Positions 13,390 to 20,303 of a stretch of 20,619 nucleotides of DNA are shown in pieces. The notes beneath the pieces were generated by a model, which searched no databases, was not told the origin of the DNA, and saw only the letters and a list, made by a program, of their open reading frames with translations. Positions within the stretch are counted from its first letter, which is position 1; every line of letters begins with the position of its first letter. The stretch is from an uncultured Planctomycetia bacterium. Lineage in GTDB: Bacteria > Omnitrophota > Gorgyraeia > Duberdicusellales > 4484-171. Location of the stretch: assembly GCA_964536865.1 (NCBI GenBank), contig CAZHYN010000005.1, positions 56,829-77,447 on the forward strand, in the 5' to 3' direction. The translations under genes and the position numbers were made by a program.

Positions 13390-14394
13390 TTAGAACCAGG
13401 TTCTTACTCCTGCTCCAATAGATATCCCCTCCTTTCCTTTTAAGAGACGTAAAAAATATTCAAAATCTTTCTCAGAGAGACTCTCCCGCCTAAAAATTAT
13501 TTCTAATCCCACCGGCTTCCCTCTCTTATCCTTTAGAGTAAATTTTAGCTTCTTACCTCTATCTAACTTTACAACAGCTGTAAATTTAATTCTTTTTATT
13601 ATTCCCTCCCCATAATTCATTTCAAAAACTAATCCCAAGGACCTTTTTATCTTCCAAGTCCCATACAGAATAATTACCCTCTCTGTGTAAGATTTTGCCC
13701 AACCTATCCCCACTCTGTATTTGATTTTATTCTGAGTAGGATAAAGAGTGGGAGTCTGGATATGCGCACGAAATTCAAAATTTGACTTATCTTGAGCTCT
13801 AAAGCTGTAACCCAACCTATTAGATGAGATAATATTCCAAAAACCTTTAAAAACTAAAGTGTTTTTCTCTTTGGTCTTAAGTTTTTTATACTCATATATA
13901 ATGTGTTGGTTTTTGTTTAGATACCAACTTCCCCTGAATATGAGAGTATCAACAAAATCTTCTCTAACTACACTGAAGGCAATCCGGTTAAACTTATCCG
14001 AATGCCATAAACCCTTTAATTTTATAAAGTATACCTTACTTATACCCCGAGACCGCTTACATTTTATCTGAACCAGCAAAGAATCTCTTTTGGGAAACAA
14101 AATTCCTGTGCGAAGGATTAATCTCTTATTCTTTTTCTCTTCTCCGCTAATGTAAAAAACTAAATTATGGTCTTTATCTAAGCTCCATCTGCCCCTAAAC
14201 TTTATTTTATCTGGCAAAGAATAAGGAGAAGAGAAAGATTTGTCAACTTCGTATATAAGATTATTTCTTTCCACTTTAAACTCGCCAAAAACTGCCTCTA
14301 TTTTCTTAGAAAAAGGGCGCCTTACCAAAAGCTGATTCTCATTATTTACCGAAACCACAAAGAAATCATTTCTTTTTAAGTTAGAAGTATACAT
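13390..14394 (-). CDS. Hypothetical protein built of ~10 tandem ~29-31-aa beta-hairpin-like repeats, with no signal peptide
   Basis: Recurring h-x-F-[RK]-G-x-W-x-h...[ND]-x-h-x-h units: IKFRGRWSLDKDHNLVF, IKLKGLWHSDKFNRIAF, LIFRGSWYLNKNQHIIY, LVFKGFWNIISSNRLGY, ILYGTWKIKRSLGLVF. Ends in GAGVRTWF. No family recognised. Confidence 0.6.
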   Translation of the reverse strand: MYTSNLKRNDFFVVSVNNENQLLVRRPFSKKIEAVFGEFKVERNNLIYEVDKSFSSPYSLPDKIKFRGRWSLDKDHNLVFYISGEEKKNKRLILRTGILFPKRDSLLVQIKCKRSRGISKVYFIKLKGLWHSDKFNRIAFSVVREDFVDTLIFRGSWYLNKNQHIIYEYKKLKTKEKNTLVFKGFWNIISSNRLGYSFRAQDKSNFEFRAHIQTPTLYPTQNKIKYRVGIGWAKSYTERVIILYGTWKIKRSLGLVFEMNYGEGIIKRIKFTAVVKLDRGKKLKFTLKDKRGKPVGLEIIFRRESLSEKDFEYFLRLLKGKEGISIGAGVRTWF

Positions 14395-14412
14395 TCTATT
14401 CTCTTATTTGTT

Positions 14413-14934
14413 TCAGAATTCTATTTTCTTAATTCCTAAGACCTTACACAATCGAAATAATGTCTCTATTGTAATATTCTTTTTGCCTTCTTCGATCATA
14501 GAGATATCTGGTTGACTTATACCTACTTGCACACCTAACTCTTTCTGAGTTAAATTCTTTTGAACTCTGGCTTCTCTAATTACTTTACCAATTTTTAAAG
14601 ATATCTGCGAGGGTCTTCCTTTAAACTTTTTATACTTATTATAACCCTCTTTTTCTAAAAGAGATTCATAGATAGTCTGCCACCAGTCTCTGAAATCTGA
14701 ATAAGGTGCAATTTTCTTCCAGTAAGATTTTATCCTTGGCCAGTATTTAATAAAATTCTCTTGAGAGATTAAAGAAAATAATTCTTTAGGGCTATGACAG
14801 CGGGAAAGAAGAGCTACCATACGAGGGATAAACTTAGAATGTTTAGGGTTATCAATAATCTCTTCTATCTCTTTAAGTGCTTTTGCACTCAAATCCCAAA
14901 AATATTTTGAGTAGATGGAAATTTTTGATTTCAT
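14413..14934 (-). CDS. XRE-family HTH protein with a ~110-aa N-terminal domain of unknown function (putative antitoxin/regulator)
   Basis: C-terminal LTQKELGVQVGISQPDISMIEEGKKNITIETLFRLCKVLG is a canonical XRE HTH. 4-nt ATGA overlap with the upstream nucleotidyltransferase gene. Confidence 0.7.
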   Translation of the reverse strand: MKSKISIYSKYFWDLSAKALKEIEEIIDNPKHSKFIPRMVALLSRCHSPKELFSLISQENFIKYWPRIKSYWKKIAPYSDFRDWWQTIYESLLEKEGYNKYKKFKGRPSQISLKIGKVIREARVQKNLTQKELGVQVGISQPDISMIEEGKKNITIETLFRLCKVLGIKKIEF

Positions 14935-15641
14935 TTCAACACCTCTTCAATAAACTTCTTTATTTCATTTTCCAAATAAATAAGCATCTCTTTAGAATCA
15001 AATTTATCCTCATAAATATCTAAATCAAGTAAGGCTAACTTAAGGTCTTGCCGAGAAAATGTCCGATACCAATGAATCATCCCTCGCTGCAGGTGGTTGG
15101 AAACTTTTTGTAAAAACAGATGTAGAGGTTCGATTTTTTTAGAAAGCATATAGATATCAAAGACATCACGAGCTTCTCTCCGCCCCTCAAATATCCTTCT
15201 ACCTATCTCATCTAATTCTGGTTTCAATCCAGCAATAGCAACAATCTTCTGGAGATATATATTCTCTACATCATAAACTCTTACTCCCTTGAATTTTCTT
15301 ATACAAGGCTTAAGAACAACCATATCTTCAACAAAATCTATTTTTAAAGGTCTTTTTGTTCCCCTAACTGGAGCTATGTAAAATCTTACTCTAGCTTTTC
15401 CCTCAACACTTAACTCTTCCTTTAAGCTCATATTAGTACCAACTACTTTTTGAAAAGCAGATACTAACTTCTCTATTTCCGATATATTATATTTCGGAGA
15501 AAAAAAGTCTAAATCTGCAGAAAATCTATGATGTAAATAATAAAGTTCTAAAGCCGTACCTCCGGAAAGAGCAAAACTCTTTGCAAATTTTGAAAAGACT
15601 CCTAATATCTTTTTTTGAGCTTCTCTAATCTTTAAATCCAT
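14931..15641 (-). CDS. AbiEii/DUF1814-like nucleotidyltransferase (putative toxin)
   Basis: FALSGGTALELYYLHHRFSADLDFF resembles the AbiEii nucleotidyltransferase core (GGTAL...R.S.DLDFF). 236 aa. Confidence 0.6.
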   Translation of the reverse strand: MDLKIREAQKKILGVFSKFAKSFALSGGTALELYYLHHRFSADLDFFSPKYNISEIEKLVSAFQKVVGTNMSLKEELSVEGKARVRFYIAPVRGTKRPLKIDFVEDMVVLKPCIRKFKGVRVYDVENIYLQKIVAIAGLKPELDEIGRRIFEGRREARDVFDIYMLSKKIEPLHLFLQKVSNHLQRGMIHWYRTFSRQDLKLALLDLDIYEDKFDSKEMLIYLENEIKKFIEEVLK

Positions 15642-15646
15642 AATTA

Positions 15647-15703
15647 TATAGGTTATATACTATATCTAATATAGATTATAACCTATAAAAATCTTTTTGT
15701 CAA
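15647..15703 (-). promoter_or_regulatory. Consensus sigma70 promoter (TTGACA-17-TATAAT) overlapped by a perfect 11-bp inverted-repeat operator
   Basis: Minus-strand -35 TTGACA at 15698-15703, 17-nt spacer, -10 TATAAT at 15675-15680. Arms TATAGGTTATA (15677-15687) and TATAACCTATA (15647-15657) are separated by 19 bp and straddle the -10 and the likely transcription start. A third TATAACCTA half-site lies at 15760-15768. The ATG at 15641 has no obvious Shine-Dalgarno. Confidence 0.6.
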
Positions 15704-15784
15704 TGTAAAAAGCTAACTCTCTCTTATAAGAATAAATAAATATTTATTAGATTTTCCTCTATAACCTAGAGTTTATAACTGAAA

Positions 15785-16108
15785 CTACCGATAATATTCA
15801 TGAGACCATTTGTAATTCTCTTTCCATCTATATCCAGAAGTCCAAAAGATACCTTTTCTCTGCAGGAACTTTTTTTGAAGAAGTTTACAAATTTCTGCAA
15901 ACTTAGGATGTAATGTTGACTCTCTTCCCATAATACCTATTCCTCCTCTAAATCCCTCCAAAGAATCTATTGCTTTCTTGATTGTTTCCAAATCCATAAA
16001 ATAAGTCTTTTTGTGATGACCTATAAAAGGCGGGCAATTAGCACACTCTAAAAAACATGTATTAGTAATCTCAATCTGAATCAACCACATATCTCTAATT
16101 GCTTTCAT
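15785..16108 (-). pseudogene. Truncated radical-SAM enzyme remnant (107 aa)
   Basis: ITNTCFLECANC carries the CxxxCxxC cluster motif. The usual GGEP(T/L)LHP motif is degraded to GRESTLHP. The ORF stops after about one third of a normal radical-SAM domain. Confidence 0.6.
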
Positions 16109-16131
16109 AATGAGCTCTTTTTAGGTTGTTT
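16064..16131. repeat. 68-bp direct repeat, copy 1 (partner at 17551-17618)
   Basis: 66/68 identical to copy 2, with mismatches at 16066 and 16094. Contains the first 14-15 codons and 23 nt of leader of the radical-SAM remnant, plus the last 3 codons and stop of the ATPase gene. Confidence 0.9.
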
Positions 16132-17476
16132 TTAAAATTTCAGAAACACGCGGAACAAGGTAAAAGGGTAAAGAAATCAAATTAAACTTTTCTCCTAAAA
16201 ACTCCACCTTACTCTTTTCTAAGTTTCCACTATAAATACGGAAAATTATTGAATTTTCTACTTCTTTAGCAAAGATAAGCAAGGATTTCAATCTGCCTAT
16301 CGGTTTAGATTTTACCTCTATACCTACTATTTTTCCCTCCTTAGAAAAACAAAAGTCCACCTCTGCACTGCCCTCTTTTTTTTCTTTAGCCCAATAAAAA
16401 ATTTTGGGAAAGACATCAATATATTGAGAAATTAAATTCTGAGCAACTACTTGTTCAGCAATTCTTCCTCTATAAAAATCATCTAACTTTTCAATATGTA
16501 AAAGTTGATCTTGTAGACCCATCTGATAATTCACTAATCCCACGTCTAAAAAAATTAATTTCTTTGGTCTTTTCTTTTGAGCTACCAGAGGAAGTCTCCT
16601 TGACTTTATAGCATTTAATTGATAAAGGAGCATAACTTTCTCTAAAGTATCAAAAGATTTACTCATTTCTCTGCTTCTAAAGTTAGAACCACCAAATTTT
16701 TCATAAGTAATTAAATTTCCCACAAATAAAGGAGCGGTTTCAATTACATAACTTAGATATTTTGCCTCGGCTAAAGAAGAATATTTATAGACATCCTCAC
16801 AATAAGTAGTAAATAAAGAGTTATATATTGATTTTAAATCGTTCATATTATTGTTTCTTATAAAACTCTTTACCACTTCAGGCATTCCTCCCACCAAGGT
16901 ATACTCGTAAAATTTTTCTAAAGCCAATTTATGAATTCCTTCAGGAATTTTATCCTTTATCTTAACATTAAGCAAAAAATCTAAAAGCTCTTTTTCTTTC
17001 TTTGCCTCTAAATACTCAAAAAAATCTAAAGGATAAAGATAACAAAATTCTACTCTTCCTACAGGAAAGGAAAGTCCTTCTCTTCTTATTTTTGCTTCCA
17101 GAAGAGAACCTGCAGCAATTACATACCAGTCTTTCTTTTCTTCATAAAAAAACCTTAATAATTTAATTAAAGATGGGGCATTTTGAATTTCATCTATGAA
17201 AATAAGGCTCTGGTTAGGAATTATTTTCTTATTAAACTTTACTTTTATAATATCCTCAAATTCTTTTAGAGAAATATCTTTGCGAAATAATCTTAAATGT
17301 TCTATGTTATCCAAGTTTATATGGATAACTTCTTTAAAATATTTTTTACCAAATAATAAAACTGCACAAGTTTTACCCACCTGGCGTGCTCCTCTTACAA
17401 TTAGAGGCTTTCTTTCTTTTTTTTCTTTCCATTTCAAAAAGTAATTAATAATTTTCCTGTAGAACATATCAGGCAC
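16121..17476 (-). CDS. AAA+ ATPase of the DUF4143/COG1373 type
   Basis: Walker A GARQVGKT, Walker B LIFIDEIQ, and the typical N-terminus FYRKIINYFLKWKEKKERKPLIVRG. The ORF-track start is GTG at 17476. The ATG at 17467 (MFYRK...) is the more likely start. Confidence 0.75.
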   Translation of the reverse strand: MPDMFYRKIINYFLKWKEKKERKPLIVRGARQVGKTCAVLLFGKKYFKEVIHINLDNIEHLRLFRKDISLKEFEDIIKVKFNKKIIPNQSLIFIDEIQNAPSLIKLLRFFYEEKKDWYVIAAGSLLEAKIRREGLSFPVGRVEFCYLYPLDFFEYLEAKKEKELLDFLLNVKIKDKIPEGIHKLALEKFYEYTLVGGMPEVVKSFIRNNNMNDLKSIYNSLFTTYCEDVYKYSSLAEAKYLSYVIETAPLFVGNLITYEKFGGSNFRSREMSKSFDTLEKVMLLYQLNAIKSRRLPLVAQKKRPKKLIFLDVGLVNYQMGLQDQLLHIEKLDDFYRGRIAEQVVAQNLISQYIDVFPKIFYWAKEKKEGSAEVDFCFSKEGKIVGIEVKSKPIGRLKSLLIFAKEVENSIIFRIYSGNLEKSKVEFLGEKFNLISLPFYLVPRVSEILKTT

Positions 17477-17550
17477 TATTTGTATTAACTTAGTACTAAT
17501 TTACTACAAATTATGTAATAATTCAATAGTTAATTTAGTAAAATTGGGTG

Positions 17551-17618
17551 AGCAATCTCAATCTGAATCAACCACATATCCCTAATTGCTTTCATAATGA
17601 GCTCTTTTTAGGTTGTTT
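17551..17618. repeat. 68-bp direct repeat, copy 2, carrying an orphan 5' fragment of the radical-SAM gene
   Basis: Same leader and ATG (17595) as copy 1. Reads MKAIRDMWLIQIEI, then diverges and stops after 21 codons (17530-17595). Confidence 0.9.
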
Positions 17619-17627
17619 AATAAATTA

Positions 17628-18022
17628 TCATAAATACCTAAACACCTGCAAAGCAGTTTTTCTCCAATCGAAATTGACTAATCTCTTTTTTCCTTTTCTT
17701 ATCAGTTCTTTTCTTAAATTACTACCTTCTATCAGTTCTTCTATTTTTTAGATAAACTCTCATAATCATATGAATCTATCAAAATTGCTGCATCATCTGT
17801 TATTTCAGGAATAGAACCTCTATTTGTAGCTATTACGGAAACTCCTCAAGCAAAAGATTCTAAAATTGGCAATCCAAATCCTTCATATAGAGAGGAGATA
17901 ATTGGAATAAGTGCGTTAGAAAGTAAAACTTTTATCAGAAGATTCCTTACTAAATTACATACATATACAGAAATTCCACACTTAGAATAAGCTAAAATTC
18001 TTGCGTTAACTCCTATTCGCAT
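17628..18022 (-). pseudogene. Decayed GT4 glycosyltransferase (internal deletion, nonsense codon, frameshift)
   Basis: Hand translation gives the GT4 N-terminus MRIGVNARILAYSKCGISVYVCNLVRNLL joined after ~45 codons directly to the C-terminal core SLYEGFGLPILESFA*GVSVIATNRGSIPEI. The TGA at 17846-17848 sits where GT4 has Cys. A 1-nt frameshift in the A6 run (17744-17749) precedes the tail IEELIEGSNLRKELIRKGKKRLVNFDWRKTALQVFRYL*. Confidence 0.75.
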
Positions 18023-18077
18023 TTTTCTCTAAGAGATACCCTTCCCTTTAAACTTCATTCTTTCAATTTTTCTTCTT

Positions 18078-19544: not shown

Positions 19545-20303
19545 TTAAGTTACTGATACTAAGGAAACAGAAAGAAAACCTAATGCAGAGAATACTCTAA
19601 CAAAGATAGGAAGATGGGGGTTATCTAACATAACCATCAGGAAAGTAGAAGAGTGTCTTAAGTTTCCATCCCTTCTTTTAACCTCCCCCCTAATCCAAAA
19701 TACTTTCTTCCCATGAAGTTTTTTGCTTTCTTCTACTTTAGCGATGAGTCTGTAATTTTTCTGATTGGTATTTATATTTAGGTCTATAACTTCTCCCTTT
19801 TTTAGACCTTTTCTATTTAAAAATGAAAAAAGTAATGATAAAGGGTCATAGGTAGGAGGATAAATTACTCTTTTTTCTCCTCCTATCTCCATAAACTGCT
19901 CGCTCTGATGGTAAATCACAACCTTCCTTTCAGGAACTTTACCCTGTATTTGAAGATCCTGGGTAAACTTTACAGGCAGGAGAGTATCCTCATCTATGAA
20001 AGAGTCGACCTCTACCTTAACTTTACGAAAAAAATCAAAGAACTTATTGGGTTTAGCATAAGCTTTTATATGGTAGACTCTCTTGCCACCTAACTCCTCA
20101 ACTCCCTTATTTTCCATAATAACTTCTCCTAAAGGGATAAAGTTAGCATAACTTACCCTAAATACTAACTTCTCTATACTTTTTTTACTATCAAGATTCA
20201 ATCTTTTTGCTATAAAAGAGGGACTATTAATAACATTAGATACTACTAAAACAAAAAGAACTAAAACCACTATACCTAAAAATATAACTCTTACATACCT
20301 CAT
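19545..20303 (-). CDS. DUF3108-like envelope protein with N-terminal membrane anchor/signal
   Basis: Hydrophobic N-terminus VIFLGIVVLVLFVLVV. FRVSYANFIPLGEVIMEN...YHIKAYAKPNKFFDFFRKVKVEVDSFIDEDTLLP resembles DUF3108 proteins. AGGAGG Shine-Dalgarno upstream. Confidence 0.55.
   Translation of the reverse strand: MRYVRVIFLGIVVLVLFVLVVSNVINSPSFIAKRLNLDSKKSIEKLVFRVSYANFIPLGEVIMENKGVEELGGKRVYHIKAYAKPNKFFDFFRKVKVEVDSFIDEDTLLPVKFTQDLQIQGKVPERKVVIYHQSEQFMEIGGEKRVIYPPTYDPLSLLFSFLNRKGLKKGEVIDLNINTNQKNYRLIAKVEESKKLHGKKVFWIRGEVKRRDGNLRHSSTFLMVMLDNPHLPIFVRVFSALGFLSVSLVSVT

What the first reader, a model, noticed from the sequence alone, without database searches (positions are those of the whole stretch)
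13390..15768. Candidate three-gene module: reversed-order AbiEii-like nucleotidyltransferase, XRE-HTH protein with unknown N-domain, and a beta-repeat protein
Seen directly: the NTase gene (14931-15641) and HTH gene (14413-14934) overlap by ATGA. They are driven by a textbook TTGACA-17-TATAAT promoter whose -10 and start region is covered by a perfect 11-bp inverted repeat, with a third half-site upstream. This is the architecture of an autoregulated toxin-antitoxin operon. Established knowledge: canonical AbiE systems place the antitoxin (AbiEi, winged HTH) first and the AbiEii NTase second. Here the order is reversed, and the partner is an XRE HTH fused to a ~110-aa N-terminal domain (YFWDLSAKALKEIEEII...WPRIKSYWKKI) that I cannot assign. 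Only 18 nt downstream, on the same strand and with no separating terminator, lies the 334-aa repeat protein of unknown family. Inference: this is a non-canonical type IV-like TA or abortive-infection module, possibly with a third effector or sensor component, embedded in a surface-glycan locus. Such loci are typical phage-receptor determinants.
Basis: partly seen in the sequence, partly recalled or inferred. Interest (0 to 1): 0.65.

Follow-up and report, generated by a model that had tools for sequence, protein, structure and literature searches.

The report
Toxin-first AbiEii nucleotidyltransferase toxin-antitoxin pair
This is a self-contained two-gene cassette, not three: an AbiEii/MenT-type nucleotidyltransferase "toxin" followed by a DNA-binding partner carrying a previously undescribed helical domain, and it recurs with the same promoter-operator design in well over a hundred uncultured bacteria.

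Summary
The 236-aa protein is an AbiEii/DUF1814 nucleotidyltransferase with every catalytic motif intact. The 173-aa protein is an XRE helix-turn-helix protein with an unassigned 96-aa all-helical N-domain. The two genes overlap by ATGA and sit behind a 12/12 sigma-70 promoter covered by palindromes.

Comparative data turn this into a robust two-gene family. I found 69 intact pairs in species-representative genomes, mostly Omnitrophota, also Elusimicrobiota, WOR-1, Nitrospirota and others. Searching from the NTase side, 72 of 73 metagenome loci with enough downstream sequence also carry the partner.

The promoter design is conserved in 55 of 66 loci. It consists of TTGACA, a first operator ATAGGTTATAATCTAT that contains the -10, and a second operator 22-23 bp downstream. 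Operator sequence co-varies with the recognition helix.

The 334-aa repeat protein is not part of the module. Its homologues lie in glycan and sulfation loci without the pair, or on the other side of it. The third half-site is not conserved.

Best reading: an autoregulated, toxin-first DUF1814 toxin-antitoxin (abortive-infection-like) cassette with a new antitoxin type. Toxicity and neutralisation are inferred, not shown. It is a new variant of a known kind and of moderate interest.

The parts
15698..15703 (-). -35 hexamer TTGACA of the cassette promoter
   Evidence: 12/12 promoter match. TTGAC lies 16-17 nt upstream of the -10 in 36 of 47 related loci.
15671..15686 (-). Operator O1, the 16-bp palindrome ATAGGTTATAATCTAT, whose centre is the -10 hexamer TATAAT (15675-15680)
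   Evidence: 0 mismatches to ATAGRTTATAAYCTAT. It is at the same position in 55 of 66 related loci.
15648..15663 (-). Operator O2, ATAGTATATAACCTAT, 23 bp downstream of O1 (centre to centre), between the predicted transcription start and the start codon
   Evidence: (D1, spacing 23). O1-O2 spacing is 23 bp in 34 loci and 22 bp in 12 of 47.
14931..15641 (-). AbiEii/DUF1814-family nucleotidyltransferase, 236 aa, the predicted toxin. Motifs: G27-G28 (I); R39-F-S41-A-D43-L-D45 (II, with the putative phosphoacceptor S41); K100-I-D102; K132 (III); R158-D159-x-x-D162 (IV)
   Evidence: Pfam PF08843 E=2e-20. 24 PADLOC AbiEii models match. All motif residues are invariant in 40 homologues. The nearest solved structures by sequence profile are 4o8s and 4ok0 (E=6e-7).
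14647..14934 (-). N-terminal domain of the 173-aa partner (residues 1-96): six helices, five invariant tryptophans, no assigned family. It is the predicted toxin-binding or neutralising domain.
   Evidence: AlphaFold2 gives pLDDT 89 and pTM 0.78. There is no Pfam match. No Foldseek match in PDB (best E=5.4) or BFVD (best E=3.2). Conserved residues are listed.
14428..14607 (-). XRE-type helix-turn-helix domain of the partner (residues 110-169), the predicted autorepressor that binds O1 and O2
   Evidence: HTH_3 E=2e-15. Foldseek matches C.BclI, HipB, C.AhdI and C.Esp1396I at TM about 0.75-0.83 over the target. The recognition helix co-varies with the operators.
14413..14934 (-). Whole partner gene (173 aa), overlapping the NTase stop codon by ATGA (translational coupling)
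   Evidence: The 4-nt overlap is present in 62 of 74 related pairs.
13390..14394 (-). NOT part of the cassette. A 334-aa lysine-rich repeat protein (units of about 56 aa with a G-x-W...L-x-F motif) from a small family, all named members from Omnitrophota, that belongs to the surrounding glycan/sulfation locus.
   Evidence: Only 17 clusters exist. Homologues lie in glycan loci without the pair or on the other side of it. Internal repeats. No Pfam or PDB match.
15760..15768 (-). It is not a conserved element and is probably chance or a local remnant.
   Evidence: An exact upstream copy is found only in the window's own genome among 47 loci.

Best explanation
This is a mobile, self-contained two-gene toxin-antitoxin (abortive-infection-like) cassette of the DUF1814/AbiEii/MenT nucleotidyltransferase class, in toxin-first order.

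Shown:
- One sigma-70 promoter drives a translationally coupled NTase gene and partner gene.
- The partner consists of a novel six-helix N-domain, a flexible linker and an XRE helix-turn-helix domain.
- Two 16-bp palindromic operators, 22-23 bp apart, cover the -10 hexamer and the transcription start region.
- This design is conserved across phyla, and operator sequence co-varies with the recognition helix.

Inferred:
- Dimers of the partner bind O1 and O2 and repress the operon.
- The NTase is a growth-arresting enzyme that, like MenT1/3/4 and AbiEii, adds nucleotides to tRNA 3' ends.
- The partner's N-domain binds the NTase and neutralises it, either by occluding the active site or by inducing auto-phosphorylation of the invariant Ser41. 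Ser41 sits in R-x-S-x-D-x-D, the position of Thr65 in S. agalactiae AbiEii.
- Loss or turnover of the partner (cassette loss, phage-induced shut-off of host expression) would free the toxin.

The 334-aa neighbour is a gene of the glycan locus. The cassette has landed in an insertion-prone spot of that locus.
For: Family and active site:
- Pfam AbiEii E=2e-20.
- G27, G28, R39, F40, S41, D43, L44, D45, K100, D102, K132, D159 and D162 are invariant in 40 homologues (R158 is conserved in at least 90%). They match motifs I-IV of Dy et al. 2014 (PMC3985639) and the phosphoacceptor position reported for AbiEii T65 and MenT (PMC11375011).

The pair is a unit:
- The NTase lies immediately upstream of the partner in 77 of 78 assessable genome loci; 69 are intact. 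62 of 74 pairs overlap by 4 nt and 7 by 1 nt.
- Searching from the NTase side, 72 of 73 metagenome loci with at least 300 nt downstream carry the partner. This includes a subfamily with only 34-38% NTase identity and 27-37% partner identity, so the two genes diverge together.

Asymmetry typical of toxin-antitoxin pairs:
- Five loci hold NTase remnants and one an orphan partner; the partner reads full length in at least four of these six. No checked locus has an NTase without a partner.

Mobility:
- Flanking genes are heterogeneous (169 Pfam families in 126 neighbours, none in more than 5).
- Record titles span several phyla.
- The zone has low GC, 0.28-0.33.

Autoregulation:
- In 55 of 66 loci TTGACA is followed by O1 (which contains the -10) and O2, although the proteins are only 45-65% identical.
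- Loci whose recognition helix reads QGDIS, QADIS, QSDIS, QPNIS or QPHIS instead of QPDIS carry different palindromes.

Partner architecture.
Against: - No experiment exists for any member. Toxicity, complex formation, phosphorylation and DNA binding are all inferred.
- The N-domain has no detectable relative among known antitoxin domains. Foldseek finds no AbiEi C-terminal domain, MenA or any other hit.
- In distant relatives the N-domain plus XRE head is fused to Mrr_cat nuclease and PIN/TPR domains. This fits a sensor or regulatory role at least as well as a toxin-binding role.
- MenT2 shows that not every DUF1814 protein is toxic (PMC7450476).
- The closest solved relative by sequence (4o8s/4ok0) is deposited only as 'Putative', with no functional annotation.
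- The family was not found on viral contigs or plasmids, so mobility rests on patchy context alone.
Confidence: 0.7

Rival explanations
1. One reading: a three-gene module in which the 334-aa repeat protein is a third effector or sensor component, co-transcribed with the NTase and the HTH protein.
For: - An 18-nt gap, the same strand and no terminator-like site.
- The rare 334-aa family lies within 3 kb of the pair in 4 of 7 contexts seen: the window, L021, L025 and L029.
Against: - None of about 75 other genome loci has the 334-aa homologue downstream of the pair.
- In L025 and L029 it lies upstream of the pair's own promoter, and in L021 it is 2.5 kb away.
- Three further genomic contexts (five loci, L011-L015) have it with no AbiEii or HTH gene nearby, next to Wzy_C, GT9, sulfate-activation and carbamoyltransferase genes.
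- No neighbour family is conserved.
- Co-directional read-through is generic here, because every long gene in the window is on the minus strand.
Confidence: 0.04
2. A transcription-only control model. The partner is purely a repressor or sensor, like a restriction-modification controller protein or a CapH/BrxR-type defence regulator. Its N-domain senses a signal, and the NTase is an effector released by de-repression with no protein-level neutralisation.
For: - The HTH domain is structurally closest to controller proteins (C.BclI, C.AhdI, C.Esp1396I) and to HipB.
- PADLOC 'Control_protein' and capH models match it.
- The tandem operators over the promoter resemble controller-protein operators.
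- Distant N-domain/XRE relatives are fused to nucleases, as if the head were a regulatory module.
Against: - The effector gene comes first and is translationally coupled to the regulator in 69 of 74 pairs. A toxic effector would therefore be made before, and in step with, its repressor on entering a naive cell. That is only viable with protein-level neutralisation, as in HigBA and MqsRA (established knowledge).
- The N-domain is at least as conserved as the HTH domain (66% against 59% mean column identity) and diverges together with the NTase.
Confidence: 0.15
3. The NTase is not a toxin. It is a housekeeping or modifying nucleotidyltransferase, for example acting on a glycan-pathway metabolite, a small molecule or an RNA, under a dedicated local repressor.
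For: - The cassette sits in glycan loci in the window, L001, L003, L029 and some other loci.
- MenT2 is non-toxic.
- The nearest solved homologue has no functional annotation.
Against: - Contexts are mostly unrelated to glycans: nrdR/CCA-adding enzyme/helicase in L005-L010, and 169 families among the neighbours.
- The distribution across phyla is patchy.
- NTase decay with the partner retained and neighbouring MazF, ParE, extra AbiEii and AAA_14/DUF4143 genes are signatures of conflict or addiction genes, not of metabolic ones.
Confidence: 0.08

Closest known systems
AbiE (AbiEi-AbiEii) of Lactococcus and Streptococcus agalactiae
   Same: - The toxin belongs to the same Pfam family (PF08843), with motifs I-IV and the R-x-[S/T]-x-D-x-D phosphoacceptor context.
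- It is a bicistronic, overlapping operon.
- The partner has two domains, one DNA-binding and one non-DNA-binding.
- Inverted repeats in the promoter suggest negative autoregulation.
   Different: - Gene order is reversed (toxin first).
- The partner is not AbiEi/COG5340. It has an XRE HTH at the C-terminus instead of a winged HTH at the N-terminus, and an unrelated six-helix domain instead of the AbiEi C-terminal domain.
- The operators overlap the -10 hexamer itself.
- The toxin is too diverged for any solved AbiEii or MenT structure to appear among the profile matches to PDB sequences at E<=1.
MenAT1-4 of Mycobacterium tuberculosis (DUF1814 toxins that block tRNA acceptor stems; antitoxin-induced auto-phosphorylation)
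   Same: - The same toxin superfamily.
- There is precedent for one toxin family pairing with unrelated antitoxin families: MazE-like MenA1, COG4861 MenA2, COG5340 MenA3 and MenA4.
- The Ser/Thr at the phosphorylation position is conserved.
   Different: - All four MenAT systems are antitoxin first (PMC7450476).
- None has an XRE partner or this N-domain.
- MenAT1 was also tested for transcriptional regulation (PMC11375011; the result was not retrieved here), whereas here the operator design is the most conserved non-coding feature.
Toxin-first type II systems with XRE antitoxins (HigBA, MqsRA, HipAB-like regulation)
   Same: - The toxin gene precedes and overlaps the antitoxin gene.
- The antitoxin is an N-terminal neutralising domain plus a C-terminal XRE HTH, as in MqsA (established knowledge).
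- The promoter is covered by palindromes.
- The HTH fold is closest to HipB and controller proteins.
   Different: - The toxin is a nucleotidyltransferase, not an RNase or a kinase.
- The N-domain is unrelated to MqsA's zinc domain or to HigA.
PDB 4o8s/4ok0, a structure deposited as 'Putative'. From my own recall, not checked here, this is JHP933, a DUF1814 nucleotidyltransferase of the Helicobacter pylori plasticity zone.
   Same: It is the closest solved relative of the NTase by sequence profile (E=6e-7, query positions 21-172), and the RFSxDLDF and ARDxFD motifs align.
   Different: No partner or function is known to me for that protein. Identity is low. Campylobacter plasmid homologues have a small upstream ORF instead, that is the opposite order.

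Membership tests
AbiE / DUF1814-COG5340 toxin-antitoxin system | The toxin is a DUF1814/AbiEii nucleotidyltransferase with motifs I-II (hG[GS]...R..DhD), III (K) and IV (+DxxD) | tested here: met
   Pfam PF08843 E=2e-20. G27, G28, R39, D43, D45, K132 and R158-D159-x-x-D162 are present, and all but R158 (at least 90%) are invariant in 40 homologues. Motif definitions come from PMC3985639.
AbiE / DUF1814-COG5340 toxin-antitoxin system | The antitoxin is AbiEi (COG5340 or COG4861): an N-terminal winged HTH plus a C-terminal neutralising domain | tested here: not met
   No AbiEi Pfam or PADLOC model matches the 173-aa protein; only XRE-type HTH models do. The domain order is the opposite one. Foldseek on the N-domain finds no solved structure at E<5.
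AbiE / DUF1814-COG5340 toxin-antitoxin system | The regulator or antitoxin gene precedes the NTase gene | tested here: not met
   The NTase gene is first in the window and in all 74 related pairs analysed. Dy et al. 2014 state that the regulator precedes the NTase.
AbiE / DUF1814-COG5340 toxin-antitoxin system | Negative autoregulation through inverted repeats in the promoter | tested here: inconclusive
   Two palindromes cover the -10 and the start region. They are conserved in 55 of 66 loci and co-vary with the recognition helix. Binding and repression themselves cannot be tested with these tools.
Type VII DUF1814 systems (MenAT1/3; AbiE as reclassified) | A conserved Ser/Thr phosphoacceptor two residues before the first catalytic Asp | tested here: met
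   S41 in R39-F-S41-A-D43-L-D45 is invariant in 40 homologues. The spacing is the same as R63/T65/D67/D69 of S. agalactiae AbiEii.
Type VII DUF1814 systems (MenAT1/3; AbiE as reclassified) | The antitoxin binds the toxin and induces its auto-phosphorylation | not testable with these tools
   This needs Phos-tag gels or mass spectrometry of the co-expressed proteins.
Toxin-antitoxin system (general) | The toxin arrests growth and the cognate partner rescues | not testable with these tools
   There is only indirect support: a strict pairing (72 of 73 and 77 of 78 loci), NTase decay with the partner retained in 5 or 6 loci, and variable genomic contexts.
Proposed three-gene module (NTase + HTH + 334-aa repeat protein) | Conserved co-occurrence and order of the three genes | tested here: not met
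   The 334-aa homologue lies downstream of the pair only in the window's own genome. It lies upstream of the pair in L025 and L029, 2.5 kb away in L021, is absent from the other roughly 75 loci, and stands alone in three other genomic contexts, L011-L015.

The most novel reading that the evidence does not exclude
The six-helix, tryptophan-rich N-domain is a new class of antitoxin or sensor domain with no structural relative in PDB or BFVD. It controls DUF1814 nucleotidyltransferase toxins at the protein level, possibly by triggering Ser41 auto-phosphorylation. Coupled to an XRE HTH, it forms a portable 'head' that other conflict systems also use, as in the Mrr_cat/PIN/TPR fusions. This would define a previously unrecognised, toxin-first branch of the AbiE/MenAT superfamily. 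That branch is abundant in Omnitrophota, Elusimicrobiota and neighbouring uncultured phyla and would probably be missed by defence or toxin-antitoxin finders that require an AbiEi partner.
Probability: 0.4. Interest if true: 0.6.

Novelty: new variant of a known kind. Interest (0 to 1): 0.45.

Why it matters
- DUF1814 toxins (AbiEii, MenT) are a current focus because they stop translation by modifying tRNA 3' ends and are switched off by antitoxin-induced auto-phosphorylation. Every characterised system is antitoxin first.
- A large natural family with the opposite order and an unrelated, structurally unmatched partner domain tests how general that switch is. It also offers a compact new toxin-binding domain to study.
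- The very well conserved promoter-operator design, together with natural specificity variants (QPDIS against QGDIS, QADIS or QSDIS heads with different palindromes), is a ready-made system for studying repressor-operator co-evolution.
- Tools that call AbiE only when an AbiEi gene is present would probably miss this family, which may undercount defence or addiction genes in Omnitrophota and related uncultured phyla.
- Removing the 334-aa protein from the module prevents a wrong three-component model from spreading.

Tried and rejected
- **Three-gene module.** Rejected by gene-neighbourhood data.
- **Third operator half-site.** Not conserved.
- **N-domain against Pfam.** No match for any of 37 members, even at E<=5.
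- **N-domain against solved structures.** The sequence profile gives only a 35-residue match to the helical region of Listeria GmaR (7x9r; whole-sequence E=1e-4, per-stretch E=0.02). Foldseek on the N-domain model does not recover it, so I treat it as unproven local similarity.
- **Foldseek against viral structures.** Nothing.
- **Full-length partner model against PDB.** Only the HTH domain matches.
- **334-aa protein.** No match in Pfam, NCBIfam or PDB sequence profiles. The only PADLOC hit is a weak Csx19 match at E=0.014, which I disregard.
- **Viral contigs scanned with the NTase profile.** None.
- **Plasmid database.** No N-domain relative and only remote AbiEii relatives.
- **Variovorax plasmid.** An AbiEii gene there is followed, with a 4-nt overlap, by a 172-aa protein carrying a winged HTH. 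It looked like a bridge to cultured bacteria, but hhalign to the N-domain gives only 8.5% probability. I record it as an analogy, not a homologue.
- **Rfam and tRNA scans.** Nothing in the region.
- **Literature.** No paper in the library describes an AbiEii-XRE toxin-first pair. Absence from this library does not prove absence elsewhere.
Full report

Yes, at the stated coordinates.
- The minus strand carries ORFs at 14931-15641 (236 aa), 14413-14934 (173 aa) and 13390-14394 (334 aa).
- The first two overlap by ATGA. The third starts 18 nt after the second gene's stop codon.
- Upstream lies TTGACA-17-TATAAT at 15703..15675, the only 12/12 match in the scanned 3.6 kb. The total number of promoter-like sites is not above chance (12 found, 12.7 expected). 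No terminator-like site lies anywhere between 12800 and 16400.
- The perfect 11-bp inverted repeat TATAGGTTATA/TATAACCTATA is there. It extends to 22-nt arms at 86% complementarity.
- The 9-mer TAGGTTATA occurs three times in the window, all within 15649-15768, against 0.47 expected; 1 of 100 shuffles reaches three.
- Pfam assigns the 236-aa protein to AbiEii (PF08843, E=2e-20, profile positions 8-215 of 238) and residues 119-169 of the 173-aa protein to HTH_3. Nothing matches the first 110 residues of that protein or any part of the 334-aa protein.
- Twenty-four PADLOC AbiEii models match the NTase.

**2. Where the window comes from**

The window matches a Candidatus Omnitrophota metagenome-assembled genome from Guaymas (QNCE01000093.1; 100% identity for the partner protein). 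Public records call the three proteins 'hypothetical protein', 'XRE family transcriptional regulator' and 'hypothetical protein'. All long ORFs in the window are on the minus strand. Most of them encode glycan biosynthesis functions: epimerase, GT1, GT2, ManC and DUF3108.

**3. The NTase-HTH pair is a conserved unit**

- The 173-aa protein has at least 420 full-length relatives of 167-175 aa.
- In three independent contexts an AbiEii gene of 235-240 aa lies immediately upstream and overlaps the partner gene by 4 nt.
- A scan of one genome per species returned 80 loci. Most are labelled Omnitrophota. Others are labelled Elusimicrobiota, WOR-1, Nitrospirota, Goldiibacteriota, Firestonebacteria, Ratteibacteria, 'Planctomycetia', Syntrophomonadaceae or Deltaproteobacteria.
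- tblastn finds the NTase directly upstream in 77 of these loci. Two of the three negatives are cut off by a contig end. The third, L049, is a true orphan partner.
- 69 NTase genes are intact. Five are remnants of 18-132 codons; the partner gene beside four of them reads full length, while in L047 it also reads truncated.
- The gene junction is a 4-nt overlap in 62 of 74 pairs and a 1-nt overlap in 7.
- Searching from the NTase side in metagenome contigs gave 80 more loci. 70 show the partner by tblastn. Two apparent exceptions, L152 and L174, do encode it in divergent form (hhalign probability 97.7% for L174). The other negatives are cut by contig ends or leave too little downstream sequence; only L151 (313 nt) remains unchecked among those with at least 300 nt.
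- A subfamily with 34-38% NTase identity has 27-37% partner identity, so the two genes diverge together.
- The family was not found on IMG/VR viral contigs. On 72,556 plasmids only remote AbiEii relatives and HTH-only matches appear.

**4. The promoter-operator design is conserved and co-varies with the HTH**

- In 55 of 66 loci the 90 nt before the NTase start contain the same design. TTGACA comes first. About 17 nt later comes a 16-bp palindrome ATAG-N8-CTAT whose centre is the -10 hexamer (TATAAT or TATACT). A second such palindrome follows.
- Among the 47 loci with long enough flanks, palindrome spacing is 23 bp in 34 and 22 bp in 12. The TTGAC-to-(-10) spacer is 16-17 nt in 36. The second palindrome ends a median of 15 nt before the start codon.
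- In the window the operators are O1 at 15671-15686 and O2 at 15648-15663.
- This DNA conservation holds although the proteins are only 45-65% identical.
- Loci with a different recognition helix carry different palindromes. L090 (QGDIS), L094 (QADIS), L095 (QGDIS) and L035 (QSDIS) have ATATG...CATAT-type or AT-only sites, and L073 and L079 (QPNIS, QPHIS) have altered sites. All QPDIS loci keep ATAG...CTAT.
- I take this as strong comparative evidence that the XRE domain reads these operators and represses its own promoter. Binding itself is inferred.
An exact copy occurs only in the window's own genome, and a copy with at most one mismatch in 4 of 47 loci.

**5. The proteins**

*NTase.* Among 40 homologues the invariant residues include G27, G28, R39, F40, S41, D43, L44, D45, K100, D102, K132, D159 and D162; R158 is conserved in at least 90%.
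- These are motifs I-IV as defined for AbiEii by Dy et al. 2014 (PMC3985639).
- S41 stands where T65 is auto-phosphorylated in S. agalactiae AbiEii and where MenT1 and MenT3 are phosphorylated (bioRxiv 10.64898/2026.01.19.700257; PMC11375011).
- The nearest solved structures by sequence profile are 4o8s and 4ok0 (E=6e-7). No solved MenT or AbiEii structure appears among the matches at E<=1, so this is a distinct DUF1814 branch.

*Partner.* AlphaFold2 (pLDDT 87.5) shows six helices (residues 4-95), a disordered linker (96-109) and a classic XRE domain.
- Foldseek matches only the XRE part, to C.BclI, HipB, C.AhdI and C.Esp1396I.
- The N-domain modelled alone (pLDDT 89, pTM 0.78) has no significant match in PDB (best E=5.4) or BFVD (best E=3.2), and none in Pfam.
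- It is at least as conserved as the HTH domain. Invariant residues include K10-Y-F-W13, H32, F35, L43-S-R45, W65-P66, W72, W84-W85 and Y89.
- A profile search of 1.84 billion representative proteins finds only 93 proteins. In the representatives long enough to show it (most are 160-180 aa) and in all ten I scanned against Pfam, an XRE HTH follows the N-domain.
- A few distant members add Mrr_cat nuclease, PIN or TPR domains at the C-terminus.

**6. The 334-aa protein is a neighbour, not a component**

- Its family is tiny: 17 clusters, and every member that carries a source name comes from Omnitrophota.
- It has genuine internal repeats of about 56 residues and no match in Pfam or among PDB sequences.
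- In three further genomic contexts (five loci) it sits among Wzy_C, GT9, sulfate-activation and carbamoyltransferase genes with no AbiEii or HTH gene nearby.
- Of the 79 other genome loci that hold the pair, three have it within 4 kb. In L025 and L029 it lies immediately upstream of the pair's own promoter. In L021 it is 2.5 kb upstream.
- L029 reads Inositol_P, AAA_14/DUF4143 ATPase, 334-aa homologue, AbiEii, HTH, ManC. L025 has a MazF gene just beyond the pair.
- Position and order therefore vary. I read the repeated proximity as an insertion-prone junction of the glycan/sulfation locus where selfish genes accumulate.
- Immediate neighbours of the pair across 65 loci fall into 169 Pfam families, none present in more than 5 of 126 neighbours. 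Glycan genes are a recurrent minority.

**7. Mechanism**

I commit at about 0.7 to an autoregulated, toxin-first DUF1814 toxin-antitoxin or abortive-infection-like cassette.
- Shown: the gene pair, the translational coupling, the conserved active site, the conserved and co-varying operators, the variable contexts, and NTase decay with the partner retained.
- Inferred: the NTase arrests growth, by analogy to MenT and AbiEii through nucleotide addition to tRNA 3' ends. The N-domain binds and neutralises it, by occlusion and/or induced auto-phosphorylation of S41. The HTH domain represses transcription through O1 and O2.
- The main rival (0.15) is control by transcription alone. Toxin-first order with translational coupling argues against it. 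The nuclease fusions of the N-domain/XRE head keep it alive.
- A non-toxic metabolic NTase (0.08) and the three-gene model (0.04) are unlikely.

**8. Comparison with known systems, and novelty**

- The toxin is a member of the AbiEii/DUF1814 family.
- The system is not a member of AbiE as defined. The antitoxin family and the gene order were both tested and are not met.
- Every characterised DUF1814 system (AbiE, MenAT1-4) is antitoxin first, with COG5340, COG4861 or MazE-like partners (PMC3985639; PMC7450476).
- The architecture works like HigBA or MqsRA: toxin first, and an antitoxin made of an N-terminal neutralising domain plus a C-terminal XRE HTH.
- I found no description of this pairing in the searchable literature.
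- It is therefore a new variant of a known kind. It is abundant in uncultured phyla, and finders that require an AbiEi partner would probably miss it.
- Interest is moderate (0.45). The toxin class and the operon logic are familiar. The partner domain, the reversed order, the family's size and the operator co-variation are new and directly testable.

Noticed in passing
window 16053-16139 and 17540-17626: An 87-nt direct repeat (89% identical) flanks the AAA_14/DUF4143 ATPase gene (16121-17476). The repeat comprises the leader and first ~20 codons of the radical-SAM ORF. The ATPase gene therefore looks like an insertion that duplicated the 5' end of that gene.
   Followed up: partly
window 15785-16108 (minus strand): The radical-SAM ORF just upstream of the cassette is only 107 aa. 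The CxxxCxxC motif is present, but Pfam covers only profile positions 1-72 of 166, so the gene is truncated. The cassette promoter begins about 80 nt after its stop codon, consistent with the cassette or an accompanying deletion having destroyed the gene.
   Followed up: partly
window ~17650-18070 (minus strand): The sequence reads like the C-terminal part of a GT4 glycosyltransferase with in-frame stop codons (...[47 protein letters not shown]), so it is a likely pseudogene. Together with the low GC of 15000-18000 (0.28-0.32), this marks a decayed, insertion-prone zone within the glycan locus.
   Followed up: no
L029:1157-4498; L025:716-4136; window 13390-17476: The rare 334-aa repeat-protein gene, an AAA_14/DUF4143 ATPase gene, the AbiEii-HTH pair and (in L025) a MazF gene cluster next to sulfate-activation or ManC genes, in different orders, in divergent Omnitrophota genomes. 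This suggests a recurrent hotspot for selfish genes at this junction of the glycan/sulfation locus.
   Followed up: partly
L003:650-2016: A second, different AbiEii gene (253 aa) is preceded by an overlapping 202-aa ORF with no Pfam hit (partner-first order). It lies 2.3 kb upstream of the toxin-first pair in the same glycan locus. Three further AbiEii genes occur among the immediate neighbours of the pair elsewhere.
   Followed up: no
L177:2381-3681 (Variovorax sp. WDL1 plasmid 3, NZ_LR594691.1): An annotated AbiEii gene is followed, with a 4-nt overlap, by a 172-aa 'hypothetical protein'. That protein has a weak C-terminal winged-HTH match (TrmB, HTH_24) and an N-terminal 'FWSRD...F..HWPHIR' stretch reminiscent of the N-domain. 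hhalign probability is only 8.5%, so homology is unproven. Toxin-first AbiEii pairs with other DNA-binding partners may exist in cultured Proteobacteria.
   Followed up: partly
proteins P0199 (755 aa) and P0216 (603 aa): Distant relatives of the N-domain/XRE head are fused at the C-terminus to a Mrr_cat restriction-endonuclease domain plus a PIN-TPR-GreABC or TPR region. The head may therefore act as a regulatory module in other conflict systems. Their genomic contexts could not be looked up.
   Followed up: no
N-domain residues 26-60 (window ~14755-14859): There is a short sequence-profile similarity to the helical region of the Listeria anti-repressor glycosyltransferase GmaR (7x9r residues 213-247; 'LLSKFHQPKEIFAFMERHHFI' against 'LLSRCDKPKELFSLISKEEFI'; whole-sequence E=1e-4, per-stretch E=0.02). 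Foldseek does not support it.
   Followed up: partly
L001:5513-8734, L011:5983-8386, window 19545-20303: A carbamoyltransferase-SxtJ-DUF5989 block recurs in L001, L002 and L011, and DUF3108 genes recur in L001-L004 and the window, all in these Omnitrophota glycan loci. In L001 the AbiEii-HTH pair occupies exactly the position that the 334-aa gene occupies in L011.
   Followed up: no
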